This document shows, in pieces, positions 133-3,403 of a stretch of 32,000 bases of DNA. Below the pieces are notes generated by a model. That model saw only the letters and a list, made by a program, of their open reading frames with translations. It did no database searches and was not told the origin of the DNA. Positions within the stretch are counted from its first letter, which is position 1. Every line of letters starts with the position of its first letter. This stretch comes from Pseudodesulfovibrio piezophilus C1TLV30 (lineage in GTDB: Bacteria > Desulfobacterota > Desulfovibrionia > Desulfovibrionales > Desulfovibrionaceae), in the NCBI RefSeq assembly GCF_000341895.1, contig NC_020409.1, positions 1,800,001 to 1,832,000 on the forward strand, read 5' to 3'. The position numbers were made by a program, and so were the translations under genes.

Positions 133-543
133 ATGAAAAAAGCTCTGATGATCTGCCTGATGGTTGCGGCCATGGTATGTGTCTTTGCATTGCCCGCCGT
201 TATCGCAGGTAATGCTCCCGCCGATACCATCACCATGATTGCTCCCAACGGACAGAAAATGTCCAAGACACCCGTGGAATTTCCGCATAAGATGCACGTT
301 GACAATGGTATCGACTGTCTGGTCTGCCACCACAAGGCAACCAGCAAAGATAATGTCAAGGGCTGTGCCAGCGAAGGTTGCCACACTGACGCCGGTAAGA
401 AAGCCAAGAAAGACCCCGAGGGCTACTACCAGGCTTTCCATAATAAGAAATCCGAAGCCGCTTGCTTGGGTTGTCACAAAAAGGCCAAGAAAGCTGGCAA
501 AAGTGCACCGGTATCCTGCAAGGACTGCCACCCCAAGAAGTAG
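133..543 (+). CDS. cycA: Periplasmic tetraheme cytochrome c3 (type I)
   Basis: 136-aa ORF with AGGAGG at 117-122. Cleavable signal peptide (..PAVIA/GN). Four heme-c attachment sites in the order CLVCH, CASEGCH (CxxxxCH), CLGCH, CKDCH, plus extra His ligands. Lys-rich, and of the size typical for c3. Confidence 0.95.
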   Translation: MKKALMICLMVAAMVCVFALPAVIAGNAPADTITMIAPNGQKMSKTPVEFPHKMHVDNGIDCLVCHHKATSKDNVKGCASEGCHTDAGKKAKKDPEGYYQAFHNKKSEAACLGCHKKAKKAGKSAPVSCKDCHPKK

Positions 544-562
544 CAATCTGCTAGGGTAACTC

Positions 563-594
563 AAGGGGGGCTGGGCACCAGCTCCCCTTTTTTT
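563..594 (+). terminator. Rho-independent terminator after cytochrome c3
   Basis: AAGGGGGGCTGG (563-574) pairs with CCAGCTCCCCTT (578-589), including one G-T wobble. The stem is followed by a run of 7 T (588-594). Confidence 0.85.
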
Positions 595-619
595 CAAACC
601 TTCTCCCACGGAGGTACAT

Positions 620-2482
620 ATGACCCCGGCTCCCCCGCCTCCCCCGACCGACGAAGTCAATGACATGCTCAACGACGGCGTTCCTGATAACGATGTTCTT
701 GACCCGGATACCGTTGATGCCGATTTCGAACAGGAGCTTGAAGATCTTTTTTCCGACGACCTCGAAGAGGAGGCTGCGGCCAGTGCCGCCATGGCCGAGG
801 ACAATGAACCTATTGTGCTCGATGAATACGTCACGACTGAAGACATAGACATCGCCATAGACGATCCTGCTCCAGTCGAACCGGAAGAGAATATCGAAAC
901 CGCTCAGACGGAAGAAGATGACGAAGGAGCACTCGTCCTTGACGATGTCGCTGAGGATGACAGCGAAGAGATGATGATTCTCGACGACGTGGTGGAAGAA
1001 GACGACGACGTCATGCTACTTGATGAAGTGATTGAGGAAGTCCCGGAAGTCCGGACAGACCCTGATGATATTGCCGCCCTGGTGGATGACATCGCAGAAG
1101 ACAACACCGTCACTCCCCCCTCTGCCGACGCAGAAGAAATCATCGAACTCGACGACCTACTCGAACAAGGTCGTCCCGAAGAGGTTTCAGAGGCACCCGA
1201 AGAAATTGTTGAACTCGATGATCTTCTCCAGGAAACGGAAACAGCCCCTTCTTCCGATGACGACACCATGCTCCTCGAAGAAATGGAGCCTGAAATCGAG
1301 CCTACCGCCGAAGAGGCAACCGAACCGACACTCCCTGACGACATGGCCGAAACCATGGCCGAAGCAATGGTCGGGGATGAAGCTGAAGACGTTTCCACCA
1401 TCACAGACCTTGAGCCAGAAACTGTCCAGGTTGAGCCGATGGAATCGGACAAACTGGGTGACCTGACGGAAGAAGCTCTGACCGATGCCGAAGAGATGCT
1501 CTCGGCAGAGCCTCCAGTGGAAGCCTCTGAGGCTCTCATGGCTGAAGCTCTTTCGGAGACAAAAGATCAGCCCGAGGAAGAAGGCACCCAAGAACTGAAG
1601 AGTGATGATGCCACTTCACAGAAACACGATATCGAGCCTGCAACGCCAGTATCCTCACTTGATGAGACTACGAACGCCGAAGATGTTCTTCCCACGAAAG
1701 AATCAGGAGAAGAGATTTCAACGGTCCCTGAAGATATGGTGGACCTTGCCCTGGCAGAAGAGTCTGGCCCGGAAATCCCGGTGGATGAGGCTGTGCTTGA
1801 GGAAGATATCGATCTCCTCATGGATGAGCCTGCATCAGAAGCGACTCCTGAGCCAGCCTCAGAAGAGGATATCCTCAAGACCGATGACAACGACATGAGT
1901 GAGTTGGCGGGGCTTGAGGCGCTGGAAGATGAAGGAATGGATGACATGGATAGCCTGCTCGACAATGTCGAGGTGGATGTTTCAGATGTCGAAACGTCAG
2001 TCGAAACGGATGAAGCGGATCTGGACATCCCCGAAGTGGATATCCCGGACACCGATTTTCCGACAATTCCCCCGACAGATGCGGCAGAGGCTGCTCTGAC
2101 CGATGCAGAAACCTCTGACATGGACACTGCCACTGAAAATGTCAGCGCCATGGAGACAGAAGAGGACTTGGGAGAAGACCTGCCGGACGAAATCATGGCA
2201 GGAGTCGATATGGACGAGGTACTCACCTCGGAAAATATGCCCCAGGACGCAGGGATTGATGTCTCCGATGATGTTGATGTCAACCAACTGCTGGCCGATG
2301 TGCGGAGCGAGACATCAGCCTCGGTCATTGCAGAATTGCAGGAAAAAGTCGCCATGCTCGAGACTCGCGTCGAAGACCTGGAAACCATGCTGCGAGAAGA
2401 AATAGCTCAGCTTGTCCCGGCGGAAGCTGCTCGTATCATTCGAGAAGAAATCACGGCTCTAGCCGATGAATTGGAAGAGTGA
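620..2482 (+). CDS. Hyper-acidic 620-aa protein of unknown function with a C-terminal coiled-coil segment
   Basis: ATG at 620 preceded by GGAGG (610-614). Residues 1-100 contain 36 D/E and no K/R/H. No signal peptide or TM segment. The last ~50 aa are heptad-like (LQEKVAMLETRVEDLETMLREEIAQL..). No family recognised. Confidence 0.8.
   Translation: MTPAPPPPPTDEVNDMLNDGVPDNDVLDPDTVDADFEQELEDLFSDDLEEEAAASAAMAEDNEPIVLDEYVTTEDIDIAIDDPAPVEPEENIETAQTEEDDEGALVLDDVAEDDSEEMMILDDVVEEDDDVMLLDEVIEEVPEVRTDPDDIAALVDDIAEDNTVTPPSADAEEIIELDDLLEQGRPEEVSEAPEEIVELDDLLQETETAPSSDDDTMLLEEMEPEIEPTAEEATEPTLPDDMAETMAEAMVGDEAEDVSTITDLEPETVQVEPMESDKLGDLTEEALTDAEEMLSAEPPVEASEALMAEALSETKDQPEEEGTQELKSDDATSQKHDIEPATPVSSLDETTNAEDVLPTKESGEEISTVPEDMVDLALAEESGPEIPVDEAVLEEDIDLLMDEPASEATPEPASEEDILKTDDNDMSELAGLEALEDEGMDDMDSLLDNVEVDVSDVETSVETDEADLDIPEVDIPDTDFPTIPPTDAAEAALTDAETSDMDTATENVSAMETEEDLGEDLPDEIMAGVDMDEVLTSENMPQDAGIDVSDDVDVNQLLADVRSETSASVIAELQEKVAMLETRVEDLETMLREEIAQLVPAEAARIIREEITALADELEE
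1133..1234 (+). repeat. Two in-frame copies of the peptide motif EEI[IV]ELDDLL[EQ], 22 codons apart
   Basis: GAAGAAATCATCGAACTCGACGACCTACTCGAA (1133-) versus GAAGAAATTGTTGAACTCGATGATCTTCTCCAG (1199-). The peptide is conserved while third codon positions differ. Confidence 0.8.
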
Positions 2483-2515: not shown

Positions 2516-2552
2516 AAAAATCCCGCTTTCACATCGAAGGCGGGATTTTTTT
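2516..2552. terminator. Bidirectional hairpin terminator between convergent genes
   Basis: AAAAATCCCGCTTTC (2516-2530) / GAAGGCGGGATTTTTTT (2536-2552). GC-rich stem with a 5-nt loop, an A-run on the left and a T-run on the right. Confidence 0.8.
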
Positions 2553-2576: not shown

Positions 2577-2786
2577 TTATTCATCACCATCAGGCTCAAT
2601 GGCACTGGATGCCGAATCCGCAGGCGGTTCCATACCGAATTGCTCGATAACACCAAGCACACTGGCTATGCCCTGCTCAAGATCAGCAGGCATACCTTCC
2701 GGGGGCAGCGCCGCTTCCAATAGAGAAACATCAATACCACTTTCTTTGGCCAACCGACACAATTTTTCATGCATTTGCTCATCCAT
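2577..2786 (-). CDS. Small acidic hypothetical protein (69 aa)
   Basis: The ATG lies 3 nt after the TGA of the upstream lipoprotein gene (TGAGCCATG), with GGAG 7 nt upstream. The gene ends about 25 nt before the bidirectional terminator. No family recognised. Confidence 0.5.
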   Translation of the reverse strand: MDEQMHEKLCRLAKESGIDVSLLEAALPPEGMPADLEQGIASVLGVIEQFGMEPPADSASSAIEPDGDE

Positions 2787-2789
2787 GGC

Positions 2790-3290
2790 TCACTCCACCA
2801 CCGGAAATCCGTCAAAGACTTCTCTGGATGCGAGCCATTTCTCCGGTACAGACGGTGTCTGCAGGTGCATTCTGGCCGCTGTCCCGACTCGCGAGGCTCT
2901 GCTCTGGGCCACAATGGACCATGCATTTCCCCCATGAGAACGCCCTGACAGATTGAGGACTTCCGCCTCTCGGGAGGGAGCGATAGCCAAAACAGTGAAT
3001 CCACGAGTTGACTGGCCATCAGCCTCGGCACTGGTAAAAACCATCATCGAATATTGATACCCCGTGGTCTTGTTCTCCCATTGGACCGGAACTCGTGGCG
3101 ACACGGTATTCAGGGCATGGCCGATCCGCCAGATATCGGCAGAGTCCAGATAACTCCCCACATATTGCTGCCCGGATGAAAAGCCCCATAAGGGCAACGT
3201 CTTTCCCTGGCAGCCGAGACAGAAAAGGAGCATGCTCGCCAGCAGAAAAATCGATACTACGCCCATAATTTTTGACCGACACTGTTTCAT
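2790..3290 (-). CDS. Probable lipoprotein, surface-antigen-like (family tentative)
   Basis: Start moved to the internal ATG giving MKQCRSKIMGVVSIFLLASMLLFCLGC, a signal peptide with a lipobox-like LGC. The pattern LDxxD..W-N-x2-TG..Y resembles RT0821/Lpp0805-type surface proteins; this is from memory and not verified. Confidence 0.65.
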   Translation of the reverse strand: MKQCRSKIMGVVSIFLLASMLLFCLGCQGKTLPLWGFSSGQQYVGSYLDSADIWRIGHALNTVSPRVPVQWENKTTGYQYSMMVFTSAEADGQSTRGFTVLAIAPSREAEVLNLSGRSHGGNAWSIVAQSRASRVGTAARMHLQTPSVPEKWLASREVFDGFPVVE

Positions 3291-3339
3291 GGCAGAACCA
3301 TAGAGAACAATCGAATCCGGCGCAACGAAAGAGAGACTA

Positions 3340-3381
3340 CCAACAAAGAAGAAAGCCCCGCTCCCTTGAAAGGAACGGGGC
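3340..3381 (-). terminator. Terminator after the malic enzyme gene
   Basis: On the minus strand GCCCCGTTCC - TTTCAA - GGGAGCGGGGC (10 bp with one wobble), followed by the T-rich CTTTCTTCTTTG. Confidence 0.6.
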
Positions 3382-3403
3382 CGCAAAAGGTGTGATTAAC
3401 CGG

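What the first reader, a model, noticed from the sequence alone, without database searches (positions are those of the whole stretch)
620..2482. 620-aa hyper-acidic, nearly Lys/Arg-free protein with a lone C-terminal coiled coil, genetically tied to cytochrome c3
I count 36 Asp/Glu and no Lys/Arg/His in residues 1-100. The whole protein has only about 15 basic residues, many of them in the last 60 aa. There is no signal peptide, TM segment or domain I can recognise. The layout is an N-terminal PAPPPPP peptide, a very long and presumably disordered polyanionic body, and a ~50-aa heptad-like C-terminus (about nt 2320-2479). This is the architecture of scaffold or hub proteins (PopZ-like, HubP/FimV acidic repeats, MamJ-like adaptors), but I see no sequence similarity to any of them. 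Other ideas are a divalent-cation buffer, a nucleic-acid mimic, or an electrostatic escort for the very basic cytochrome c3 precursor encoded immediately upstream. All functional ideas are speculative.
Basis: partly seen in the sequence, partly recalled or inferred. Interest (0 to 1): 0.7.

Follow-up and report, generated by a model that had tools for sequence, protein, structure and literature searches.

The report
Conserved hyper-acidic disordered protein behind cycA
A real but uncharacterised 620-residue, extremely acidic and mostly disordered protein of sulfate-reducing bacteria, encoded almost always directly behind the cytochrome c3 gene; it probably works as a self-associating scaffold, but its function is untested.

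Summary
ORF 620-2482 (+) encodes 620 aa with 218 Asp/Glu and only 7 Lys, 7 Arg and 1 His. It has no TM segment, signal peptide or Pfam/NCBIfam domain. It matches a Pseudodesulfovibrio piezophilus protein at 100 %. It is a translated gene, not a low-complexity artefact: homologues of 256-825 aa occur across Desulfovibrionales. They share two N-terminal motifs, enriched short acidic-hydrophobic motifs, a coiled coil and an almost invariant C-terminal helix (VPAEAARIIREEIAAL), with synonymous changes far exceeding non-synonymous ones. AlphaFold2 is confident only for helix 567-619, moderately for 29-59, and scores the rest as disordered. A tetrahaem cytochrome c3 gene lies directly upstream in 41 of 42 informative loci. 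It is separated by about 70 nt holding an intrinsic terminator plus an RBS, with no room for a promoter. The pair sits in a wider conserved block (hemL-cbiG-cobJ-cycA-acidic-ubiE). Acidity does not track c3 charge, so the "electrostatic escort" idea gains no support. PopZ, FimV/HubP and MIDAS membership tests all fail; database names are composition artefacts. Best reading (about 0.4): a cytoplasmic, self-associating polyanionic scaffold expressed by read-through of the cycA terminator. Function is unproven and I found no literature on the family.

The parts
133..543 (+). cycA: precursor of a tetrahaem (type I) cytochrome c3, 136 aa, with a signal peptide and four haem-binding motifs
   Evidence: PF02085 E 1.8e-20. 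Alignment A5 shows invariant haem Cys/His columns. Mature net charge is about +10.
563..594 (+). Intrinsic terminator after cycA: 12-bp GC-rich stem (563-574 / 578-589), 3-nt loop, T-run 588-594
   Evidence: Terminator scan and sequence. An equivalent hairpin plus T-run sits at the same place in nearly all of 36 related loci; two (L028, L033) have a hairpin but no clear T-run, L036 shows no comparable GC hairpin, and L034 has a 305-nt gap.
598..615 (+). Possible weak 6-bp hairpin pairing ACCTTC (598-603) with the RBS region GGAGGT (610-615). The RBS GGAGG is at 610-614, 5 nt before the ATG
   Evidence: MFE fold of the intergenic region and sequence. It recurs in several Pseudodesulfovibrio loci. 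Functional meaning is not tested.
620..2482 (+). Gene for the 620-aa hyper-acidic protein (stop TGA 2480-2482)
   Evidence: 100 % identical to a Pseudodesulfovibrio piezophilus protein. The N-terminus MTPAPPP is conserved in orthologues. Purifying selection in this frame.
620..679 (+). aa 1-20: Pro-rich N-terminus (MTPAPPPPP) followed by a degenerate copy (DEVNDMLNDG) of family motif 1, [DE][DE][IV][IL]EL[TS][DE][IV][VI]E
   Evidence: Alignments A1 and A6.
704..796 (+). aa 29-59: predicted helix holding family motif 2, DADFEQELEDLFSDDLEE (aa 33-50), nearly invariant across the family
   Evidence: AF2 helix 29-59, pLDDT about 74-78. Nearly invariant columns D33, F36, E37, E39, L40, E41, L43, F44. 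0 non-synonymous against 3-10 synonymous changes in 16 codons in most Pseudodesulfovibrio comparisons.
797..2236 (+). aa 60-539: polyanionic, predicted-disordered body, variable in length and sequence between species
   Evidence: pLDDT mostly below 50. Family length is 256-825 aa and the indel-rich alignments A1/A3 show the variation lies in the body.
932..1285 (+). aa 105-222: cluster of short acidic-hydrophobic motifs (LVLDDV, MILDDV, MLLDEV, IELDDL, VELDDL, MLLEEM)
   Evidence: 7 copies in the protein against 1.25 +/- 1.09 in 2000 shuffles. Family-wide count is 119 observed against 26.5 expected.
1946..1990 (+). aa 443-457: conserved block MDSLLDNVEVDVSDV
   Evidence: Invariant or nearly invariant columns L447, D448, V452, D453 and S445, L446, V450, E451, V454. 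One of the two patterns used in the genome scan.
2237..2305 (+). aa 540-562: conserved block MPQDAGIDVSDDVDVNQLLADVR preceding the coiled coil
   Evidence: Alignment A1. Short helix 554-564 in the AF2 model.
2318..2413 (+). aa 567-598: coiled-coil segment (a/d positions I570, L573, V577, L580, V584, L587, L591, L598)
   Evidence: AF2 helix with pLDDT of 90 or more. Heptad register. The profile matches only generic, mostly trimeric, coiled coils in the PDB.
2414..2479 (+). aa 599-620: family signature helix VPAEAARIIREEITALADELEE
   Evidence: Invariant P600, A603, A604, I606, I607, R608, E609, E610, I611, L614 in A1. A603-I611 is still invariant across 20 diverse members, where P600 and L614 are only nearly invariant. 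Retained in distant members P0066, P0076, P0101 and P0161.
2516..2552 (.). Bidirectional terminator-like hairpin after the gene (A-run 2516-2520, stem 2520-2526 / 2540-2546, T-run 2546-2552), shared with the convergent minus-strand genes
   Evidence: Read from the sequence.

Best explanation
The gene encodes a cytoplasmic, intrinsically disordered, polyanionic scaffold or adaptor specific to Desulfovibrionales. Inferred mechanism: the C-terminal coiled coil (aa 567-598) plus the invariant terminal helix (aa 599-620) make the protein self-associate and/or dock onto a conserved partner. The N-terminal helix (DADFEQELEDLF) and the many short acidic-hydrophobic motifs, spread along a long and highly charged spacer, bind several client proteins at once. 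Only the bulk properties of the spacer (length, charge) are conserved. This resembles how acidic hub proteins such as PopZ or HubP work, but there is no detectable homology to them. The gene has no promoter space of its own. It is most likely transcribed by read-through of the cycA terminator, or from a promoter inside cycA. That ties its low-level expression to the very strong cycA promoter and could by itself explain why the two genes stay adjacent. What is shown: composition, predicted disorder, conserved motifs, purifying selection, synteny, and the terminator-plus-RBS layout. What is inferred: self-association, client binding, read-through expression and cytoplasmic location (the last from the absence of any signal peptide or TM segment).
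For: It is a real, selected protein. 27 close homologues and 37 genome loci were found. About 60 clusters at 50 % identity have a single C-terminal match (my reading of the table). In the C-terminal 50 codons pS is 0.8-0.9 against pN 0.13-0.3, and the N motif shows 0 non-synonymous changes in most Pseudodesulfovibrio comparisons. Disorder plus terminal helices: AF2 pLDDT is 90 or more only for 567-619, about 75 for 29-59, and below 50 for 411 residues; the Uversky plot agrees. Short motifs are enriched about 4.5-7-fold over shuffles across 27 members. Body length varies from 256 to 825 aa while the termini are kept. No signal peptide or TM segment is present. The intergenic layout of terminator, about 20 nt, RBS and ATG is seen in nearly all of 36 loci; the exceptions are L034 (305-nt gap), L036 (no clear hairpin) and L028/L033 (hairpin without a clear T-run).
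Against: There is no experimental evidence of any kind: no expression, localisation, interaction or phenotype data were found. 'Scaffold' is a generic reading of an IDR plus a coiled coil. Sequence tests against PopZ are not significant (hhalign E 0.17, 0.09 and 0.028). FimV/HubP hallmarks are absent. The very persistent adjacency to cycA (41/42) could instead mean a c3-specific role. Oligomerisation was not modelled. Read-through is inferred from geometry only.
Confidence: 0.4

Rival explanations
1. It is a cytochrome-c3-specific cytoplasmic escort or holdase. In this reading the polyanion, with its amphipathic motifs, binds the lysine-rich unfolded c3 precursor. That would keep the precursor soluble and export-competent, or tune its translation or export, before Sec translocation and periplasmic haem attachment.
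For: c3 is directly upstream on the same strand in 41 of 42 informative loci. This holds where cbiG/cobJ are missing (L040, L042, L043) and where the downstream genes have changed (Pseudodesulfovibrio). The two genes probably share a transcript. The window's c3 is strongly basic, about +10. Total net charge of the acidic protein correlates with c3 charge (rho -0.48, p 0.003), but this is confounded by phylogeny.
Against: The acidic fraction does not track c3 charge (rho 0.11, p 0.54). Loci with neutral or slightly acidic c3 (L007, L009, L019, L023) keep a partner that is 34-41 % acidic. One member follows hemL directly with no c3. The upstream neighbours cobJ and cbiG are conserved almost as well (34 and 33 of 38 loci), so synteny here is partly block conservation. 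Dependence on the cycA promoter explains the adjacency without any functional link. The invariant C-terminal helix and N-terminal motifs suggest fixed partners rather than binding of a divergent, unfolded client.
Confidence: 0.15
2. It is a distant PopZ-type pole-organising protein, that is, true homology or close functional analogy. It would form a polar condensate or matrix through its C-terminal helices and recruit clients through N-terminal motifs.
For: The layout is co-linear with Caulobacter PopZ: an acidic, Pro-containing disordered region, a '[DE][DE][IV]LELTD' motif near the N-terminus, and a C-terminal helix ending LP......EE[IV]..[IL]. hhalign picks exactly these two segments as the best local matches (C-terminus: 37 columns, E 0.09; N-terminus: 15 columns, E 0.028). 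No polar hub is known to me for Desulfovibrionales, which are vibrioid and polarly flagellated (own knowledge).
Against: Neither match is significant (probabilities 0.6 % and 1.8 %). I chose PopZ because I remembered those motifs, so the comparison is post hoc. The Pfam DUF2497 model finds no member even at E up to 10. The PopZ N-terminal client-binding helix (EEILASIRRIISE) has no counterpart. The PopZ profile I could build was narrow, containing only Caulobacter-like sequences.
Confidence: 0.12
3. It is a bulk polyanion with no specific partners: a high-capacity, low-affinity buffer for divalent cations (Mg2+, Fe2+, Co2+, Ca2+), a nucleic-acid mimic, or an entropic solubiliser.
For: The protein is 35 % Asp/Glu with a net charge of about -204. 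Only the composition and length of the body are conserved. The gene lies in a block rich in tetrapyrrole, cobalamin, haem-protein and quinone genes that need Fe and Co.
Against: The termini are strongly conserved and the short motifs are enriched. This argues for specific protein contacts. Some members are only 21-27 % acidic (L027, L028, L033) yet keep both terminal motifs. No metal-binding motif (His or Cys) is present.
Confidence: 0.1
4. It is a spurious low-complexity ORF or a mis-annotated non-coding region.
For: The sequence has GA-rich codon composition, Ser-rich antisense ORFs and no domain hits.
Against: An RBS lies 5 nt before the ATG. The start and N-terminus are conserved. Orthologues occur across an order, with saturated synonymous but few non-synonymous changes at both ends.
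Confidence: 0.01

Closest known systems
PopZ (pole-organizing protein Z, Pfam DUF2497/PF10691) of Alphaproteobacteria
   Same: Both are cytoplasmic, with an acidic Pro-containing disordered region between a short N-terminal recognition element and C-terminal helices. A '[DE][DE][IV]LELTD'-like motif and a C-terminal 'P......EE[IV]..[IL]' helix appear in the same order.
   Different: There is no significant sequence or profile similarity. The PopZ N-terminal helix is absent. This protein is 2-4 times longer and much more acidic. It has a canonical heptad coiled coil, and it sits in a different lineage and gene context. Polar localisation is untested.
HubP / FimV polar landmark proteins (Vibrio, Shewanella, Pseudomonas)
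   Same: Both have a long, highly acidic region with repeated D/E-plus-Leu motifs. This is why JGI names several homologues 'pilus assembly protein FimV'.
   Different: There is no LysM domain, no TM anchor (max KD19 0.51), and no FimV N- or C-terminal NCBIfam domain at E up to 1. The termini are unrelated.
MamJ-type acidic adaptors of magnetotactic bacteria
   Different: No magnetosome genes appear in this context.
Midasin D/E-rich region ('midas domain-containing protein', the NCBI name of this protein)
   Same: The only resemblance is the D/E-rich composition.
   Different: No vWA/MIDAS or AAA domain is found by Pfam or NCBIfam. The name is a compositional artefact.

Membership tests
PopZ / DUF2497 (PF10691) | Match to the Pfam DUF2497 model (C-terminal oligomerisation domain) | tested here: not met
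   No PF10691 hit for the window protein at E up to 1. None among the 25 families listed for 20 diverse members at E up to 10, nor for ten isolated C-terminal peptides at E up to 10. Genuine PopZ proteins carry PF10691.
PopZ / DUF2497 (PF10691) | Profile-profile similarity to PopZ | tested here: not met
   hhalign of the family against a PopZ alignment: probability 0.3 % and E 0.17 (full length); 0.6 % and E 0.09 (C-terminus); 1.8 % and E 0.028 (N-terminus). The PopZ profile was narrow (Caulobacter-like only).
PopZ / DUF2497 (PF10691) | N-terminal client-binding helix (MEEILASIRRIISEDD) | tested here: not met
   This segment is invariant in the PopZ alignment A4. Family alignment A6 has no counterpart, and hhalign aligns only the LELTD segment.
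PopZ / DUF2497 (PF10691) | Acidic, Pro-rich intrinsically disordered linker | tested here: met
   35 % D/E and 7 % Pro. pLDDT is below 50 for 411 of 620 residues. The Uversky plot places it as unfolded.
PopZ / DUF2497 (PF10691) | Self-assembly and polar localisation | not testable with these tools
   Needs SEC-MALS or EM of the C-terminal domain and a fluorescent fusion in vivo.
FimV / HubP | N-terminal LysM peptidoglycan-binding domain and a transmembrane anchor | tested here: not met
   No LysM hit. The highest 19-residue hydropathy is 0.51.
FimV / HubP | FimV N-terminal and C-terminal signature domains. From memory these are TIGR03505 and TIGR03504; the accessions were not checked with a tool. 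| tested here: not met
   The NCBIfam scan at E up to 1 lists only a chance PspB match at E 0.14.
MIDAS / vWA domain proteins (NCBI product name) | A vWA fold with the MIDAS metal-binding motif | tested here: not met
   No vWA-type Pfam or NCBIfam hit. AF2 predicts no globular domain.
New family defined here (cycA-downstream acidic protein of Desulfovibrionales) | C-terminal signature [VI]P..AA[RK][IV]IREEI.A[LM] at the very end of the protein, preceded by a coiled coil | tested here: met
   The window protein ends ...LVPAEAARIIREEITALADELEE. The columns are invariant in A1 and A3.
New family defined here (cycA-downstream acidic protein of Desulfovibrionales) | N-terminal motif D.[DST]FE[QRK]ELE[DE]LF and, in most genera, a preceding [DE][DE][IV][IL]ELT[DE] motif | tested here: met
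   DADFEQELEDLF is present at aa 33-44. The first motif is degenerate here and in other Pseudodesulfovibrio.
New family defined here (cycA-downstream acidic protein of Desulfovibrionales) | Location directly downstream of a tetrahaem cytochrome c3 gene, separated by a terminator hairpin | tested here: met
   Window: cycA 133-543, terminator 563-594, ATG 620. 41 of 42 informative loci share the arrangement.
Class III (tetrahaem) cytochrome c3, for the upstream gene | PF02085 match, signal peptide, four haem-binding CxxCH/CxxxxCH motifs | tested here: met
   PF02085 E 1.8e-20. Invariant Cys/His columns in A5.

The most novel reading that the evidence does not exclude
The protein is a dedicated partner of cytochrome c3 biogenesis: a disordered polyanion, co-transcribed at low level through the cycA terminator. 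It would hold or condense the abundant Lys-rich c3 precursor in the cytoplasm and deliver it for export. That would be a substrate-specific, IDP-type export chaperone, a kind not described for any c-type cytochrome as far as I know. A second unexcluded reading of similar novelty is that it is the Desulfovibrionales counterpart, or a very distant relative, of PopZ. That would extend PopZ-type pole organisers beyond Alphaproteobacteria.
Probability: 0.15. Interest if true: 0.8.

Novelty: new variant of a known kind. Interest (0 to 1): 0.55.

Why it matters
Type I cytochrome c3 is the central periplasmic electron carrier of Desulfovibrio-type sulfate reducers and one of their best-studied genes. 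Even so, the gene that follows it in almost every genome examined has no Pfam or NCBIfam model, carries misleading database names ('midas domain', 'FimV'), and appears in no paper I could find.

If the protein is a hub or scaffold, it would be the first candidate cell-organising IDP for this order. If it is tied to c3 biogenesis, it would add a cytoplasmic step to a pathway thought to be understood.

The conserved layout of strong gene, terminator, RBS and dependent gene is also a clean natural case of expression set by terminator read-through. That mechanism could explain long-term gene adjacency without any functional coupling. At minimum, the family definition given here corrects the annotation.

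Tried and rejected
1. Pfam, NCBIfam and PADLOC scans were run on the window protein, on 20 diverse members and on isolated C-terminal peptides. They gave only coiled-coil noise.

2. PDB profile searches were run with the C-terminal (A2) and N-terminal (A6) alignments. They returned generic, mostly designed or trimeric, coiled coils, or nothing meaningful.

3. PopZ homology was tested by fetching real PopZ proteins and running hhalign three ways. None was significant.

4. The charge-complementarity test of the 'escort' idea showed no correlation between acidic fraction and c3 charge.

5. A reverse synteny test, starting from c3 and asking how often the acidic gene follows, was attempted with a c3 alignment on metagenome contigs. 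It was not pursued with single sequences, which would only find close relatives.

6. Foldseek was not run. The model is confident only for a single long helix, for which fold matches are meaningless.

7. Six of the ten allowed literature searches were run: DVU3172; Desulfovibrio + PopZ; Desulfovibrio + HubP; Desulfovibrio + intrinsically disordered + acidic + cytochrome c3; piezophilus + cytochrome c3; and a five-term query on cycA, terminator and the downstream hypothetical protein. The searches with hits returned only titles and abstracts on other subjects, and none was opened.

8. Rfam found no RNA family in the window.

9. The profile search of the 5.8-billion-protein set with the C-terminal alignment returned only 5 short fragments. 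The exhaustive representative search was more useful, but half of its hits are multi-stretch coiled-coil noise.
Full report
1. THE OBSERVATION

ORF 620-2482 (+) is real. It encodes 620 aa: 120 Glu, 98 Asp, 7 Lys, 7 Arg, 1 His, no Cys or Trp, computed pI about 4.05. Six of the 15 basic residues lie in the last 59 aa.

A GGAGG ribosome-binding site (610-614) lies 5 nt before the ATG. The highest 19-residue hydropathy mean is 0.51, so there is no TM segment or signal-peptide core. On the charge-hydropathy plot the protein falls well inside the natively unfolded region (H 0.440 against a boundary of 0.531). Pfam, NCBIfam and PADLOC give no family, only chance coiled-coil matches.

AlphaFold2 was run with 27 homologues. 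It gives a continuous helix at 567-619 with pLDDT of 90 or more, a helix at 29-59 with pLDDT of about 75, and pLDDT below 50 for 411 residues. The heptad register I570, L573, V577, L580, V584, L587, L591, L598 fits a coiled coil. After Pro600 the pattern continues as A604, I607, I611, L614, L618 (read from the sequence).

The upstream ORF 133-543 is a class III tetrahaem cytochrome c (PF02085, E 1.8e-20) with a mature net charge of about +10.

2. IT IS A REAL GENE AND A FAMILY

The protein is 100 % identical to a Pseudodesulfovibrio piezophilus protein on a 3.65-Mb contig. NCBI names it 'midas domain-containing protein'. Twenty-six further homologues of 355-508 aa were found, all unnamed, 'hypothetical', or 'pilus assembly protein FimV' in JGI.

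The alignment shows four kinds of conserved element:
- a conserved start, MTPAPPP;
- a nearly invariant DADFEQELEDLFSDDLEE;
- conserved blocks LVDDIAEEN, IIELDDL, DSLLDNVEVDVSDV and AEAMPPDAG.DVS;
- a C-terminal AELQ.KV..LE.RVEELE.RLR.EIAQLVPAEAARIIREEIAALA.ELDD, with P600 and AARIIREEI invariant.

A scan of one genome per GTDB species gave 37 loci. They come from Pseudodesulfovibrio, Maridesulfovibrio, Salidesulfovibrio, several 'Desulfovibrio' lineages, Desulfolutivibrio, a Desulfohalobiaceae MAG and a Thermodesulfobacteriota MAG.

An exhaustive profile search of 1.84 billion representatives with the C-terminal 58 aa gave 246 hits. Many are multi-stretch coiled-coil noise. By my reading of the table, about 60 have a single match at their very C-terminus. 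The distant ones (P0066, P0076, P0101, P0161) keep both an N-terminal [DE][DE][IV]IELT[DE][IV]VE motif and the C-terminal [VI]P..AA[KR][IV]IREEI.AL motif.

Family length runs from 256 to 825 aa. Asp+Glu is 21-43 % and Lys+Arg is 1-9 %.

Selection acts in this reading frame. In the C-terminal 50 codons synonymous sites are saturated (pS 0.8-0.9) while pN is 0.13-0.3. In the 16-codon N-terminal motif most Pseudodesulfovibrio comparisons show 3-10 synonymous and 0 non-synonymous changes. The 'spurious low-complexity ORF' reading is therefore excluded.

3. THE BODY IS NOT FEATURELESS

The motif phi-x-phi-[DE][DE]-phi (LVLDDV, MILDDV, MLLDEV, IELDDL, VELDDL, MLLEEM, VDMDEV) occurs 7 times against 1.25 +/- 1.09 in shuffles, with a maximum of 5 in 2000 shuffles. 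Over 27 family members this motif occurs 119 times against 26.5 expected. A second motif, [DE]-phi-[DE]-x-phi-phi (the 'DLDALL' type), occurs 113 times against 16.6 expected.

The body otherwise varies freely in length and sequence. That is the pattern of a disordered spacer carrying short linear motifs.

4. THE LINK TO CYTOCHROME c3

My ORF scan found a 122-157-aa ORF with three or four CxxCH-type motifs directly upstream on the same strand in 38 of 39 loci. The exception, L025, starts at a contig end. The apparent 1.1-kb gap in L037 is a frameshifted ORF call: the family N-terminus starts right after c3 there, and in L008 as well.

Three distant members fetched separately also follow a PF02085 gene (L040, L042, L043). 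One, L041, follows hemL directly, with neither c3 nor a terminator. In all, c3 is immediately upstream in 41 of 42 informative loci.

The spacer is 60-82 nt in all but one of the 36 loci tabulated (L034 has 305 nt). In nearly all of them it is a GC-rich hairpin plus T-run, then about 20 nt with an RBS, then the ATG; L036 shows no comparable GC hairpin and L028/L033 have a hairpin without a clear T-run. In the window the stem is 563-574/578-589, the T-run 588-594, the RBS 610-614 and the ATG 620. No promoter fits between terminator and start codon. I therefore infer that the gene is expressed by read-through of the cycA terminator, or from a promoter inside cycA. This is inference only; no transcript data were available.

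5. ADJACENCY IS NOT THE WHOLE STORY

Clustering all ORFs of the loci shows a larger conserved block. A TP_methylase gene (cobJ-like) lies upstream in 34 loci, cbiG in 33, and a class-III aminotransferase (hemL-like) in 20. A UbiE-type methyltransferase lies downstream in 17. A NirD/AhbAB-like gene precedes hemL.

A conserved ORF of about 60 aa (…KEIIVKFIEIGRISP.NF.QFF..IY.E…, no family hit) lies about 200-250 nt downstream in about 22 non-Pseudodesulfovibrio loci. It is absent from Pseudodesulfovibrio and from the window.

The cycA-acidic pair is the most persistent junction. It survives loss of cbiG/cobJ (L040, L042, L043) and replacement of the downstream genes (Pseudodesulfovibrio). Even so, block conservation and promoter dependence could explain the adjacency without a functional tie.

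6. TEST OF THE 'ELECTROSTATIC ESCORT' IDEA

Across 36 loci the mature c3 net charge ranges from -1 to +16. The acidic fraction of the partner does not follow it (Spearman rho 0.11, p 0.54). Loci with neutral c3 (L007, L009, L019, L023) keep partners that are 34-41 % acidic.

Total net charge does correlate (rho -0.48, p 0.003). However, this is driven by lineage: Maridesulfovibrio has both long acidic proteins and very basic c3. No phylogenetic correction was made.

The idea is not excluded, but it gains no support.

7. COMPARISON WITH KNOWN HUBS

From memory, Caulobacter PopZ has 'DDEVLELTDPI' and ends '…NLPRIVETKVEEEVQRI…'. I fetched real PopZ proteins (PF10691; best hit 97 % identical to my recalled query), aligned 22 of them and ran hhalign. 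The results were:
- full family against PopZ: probability 0.3 %, E 0.17;
- C-terminal profile: 37 columns aligned end to end, E 0.09, probability 0.6 %;
- N-terminal profile: 'deIlELtDivee' against 'eddvLELTDpi', E 0.028, probability 1.8 %.

The two best local matches are exactly the remembered motifs and they are co-linear. Neither is significant, however. The choice of PopZ was post hoc, the PopZ profile was narrow, the Pfam DUF2497 model finds nothing, and the PopZ N-terminal client-binding helix is missing. Membership in PopZ is therefore not met, and only the architecture is alike.

FimV/HubP hallmarks (LysM, TM anchor, FimV N- and C-terminal domains) are absent. No MIDAS/vWA domain exists. 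The database names are composition artefacts.

8. MOST LIKELY MECHANISM AND RIVALS

I commit, at about 0.4, to a cytoplasmic, self-associating, polyanionic disordered scaffold. The coiled coil plus invariant terminal helix would serve for assembly or docking. The N-terminal helix and the many acidic-hydrophobic motifs would serve for multivalent client binding. Expression would be at a low level tied to cycA through terminator read-through.

Rivals:
- a c3-specific cytoplasmic escort (0.15);
- a true PopZ-type polar organiser (0.12);
- a bulk polyanion acting as a cation buffer or nucleic-acid mimic (0.10);
- an artefact (0.01).

The remaining probability is 'something else'. Nothing in the rest of the window points to a pathway. 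It holds malic enzyme, a TAXI-TRAP binding protein, ArgJ, Mla-type ABC components, a PAS histidine kinase, a radical-SAM methylthiotransferase, an FAD/FeS oxidase and an MscS channel.

9. NOVELTY AND VERDICT

No Pfam or NCBIfam model covers the family, and six literature searches found no paper about it. It is an uncharacterised, order-restricted family. Its architecture is a variant of a known kind (acidic disordered hub proteins) without detectable homology to any of them.

For a specialist, three points are new and testable: the near-universal position behind the flagship gene cycA, the terminator-coupled layout, and the extreme charge. The function remains conjecture. Interest 0.55.

Noticed in passing
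window 563-619: The cycA terminator is followed within about 20 nt by the RBS and start of the next gene. This layout recurs in nearly all of 36 related loci and looks like expression set by terminator read-through. A weak 6-bp hairpin (598-603 / 610-615) could also mask the RBS.
   Followed up: partly
L018-L043 (e.g. L040:6113-6301, L043:6214-6402, L042:2240-2425): A conserved ORF of about 60 aa (…KEIIVKFIEIGRISP.NF.QFF..IY.E…) lies about 200-250 nt downstream of the acidic gene on the same strand, in about 22 non-Pseudodesulfovibrio loci. It has no Pfam or NCBIfam family. It is absent from Pseudodesulfovibrio loci and from the window. It is a possible partner of the acidic protein.
   Followed up: partly
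L041:1-1796: One distant family member (P0076) follows the end of a hemL-like gene directly. There is no cytochrome c3 gene and no terminator in the 66-nt spacer. This is the only informative locus where the cycA link is broken.
   Followed up: partly
L024:6001-8436 and other Maridesulfovibrio loci: Maridesulfovibrio members are much longer (about 700-825 aa). They carry tandem 'ELPDHDPRIAAVEAKLE' repeats and an extra conserved segment (…AFYRIK.RLTEDIEDYL.PRL.EKI…) before the shared C-terminal helix.
   Followed up: no
window 2516-2552: A bidirectional terminator-like hairpin (A-run, 7-bp stem, 13-nt loop, T-run) lies between the acidic gene and the convergent minus-strand ORFs. The scan tool missed it because of the loop length.
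   Followed up: no
window 2577-3386 (-): Two minus-strand ORFs have no family hit. One is 69 aa (2577-2786). The other is 198 aa (2790-3386); it has an internal Met followed by a lipoprotein-like signal (…LLFCLGCQGK), which suggests a shorter lipoprotein. Neither is conserved next to the acidic gene in other genera.
   Followed up: no
window 620-2482 (database records): The public names for this family ('midas domain-containing protein' at NCBI, 'pilus assembly protein FimV' at JGI) are not backed by any domain match. They appear to be driven by composition.
   Followed up: yes
L001, L040, L043 upstream regions: The chromosomal block around cycA groups genes for tetrapyrrole and respiratory cofactors: an AhbA/B-like NirD-type gene, hemL, cbiG, cobJ, cycA, then ubiE, polyprenyl synthase and a PNP_UDP_1-family phosphorylase (a possible menaquinone-pathway nucleosidase). 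The block is conserved across much of Desulfovibrionales.
   Followed up: partly
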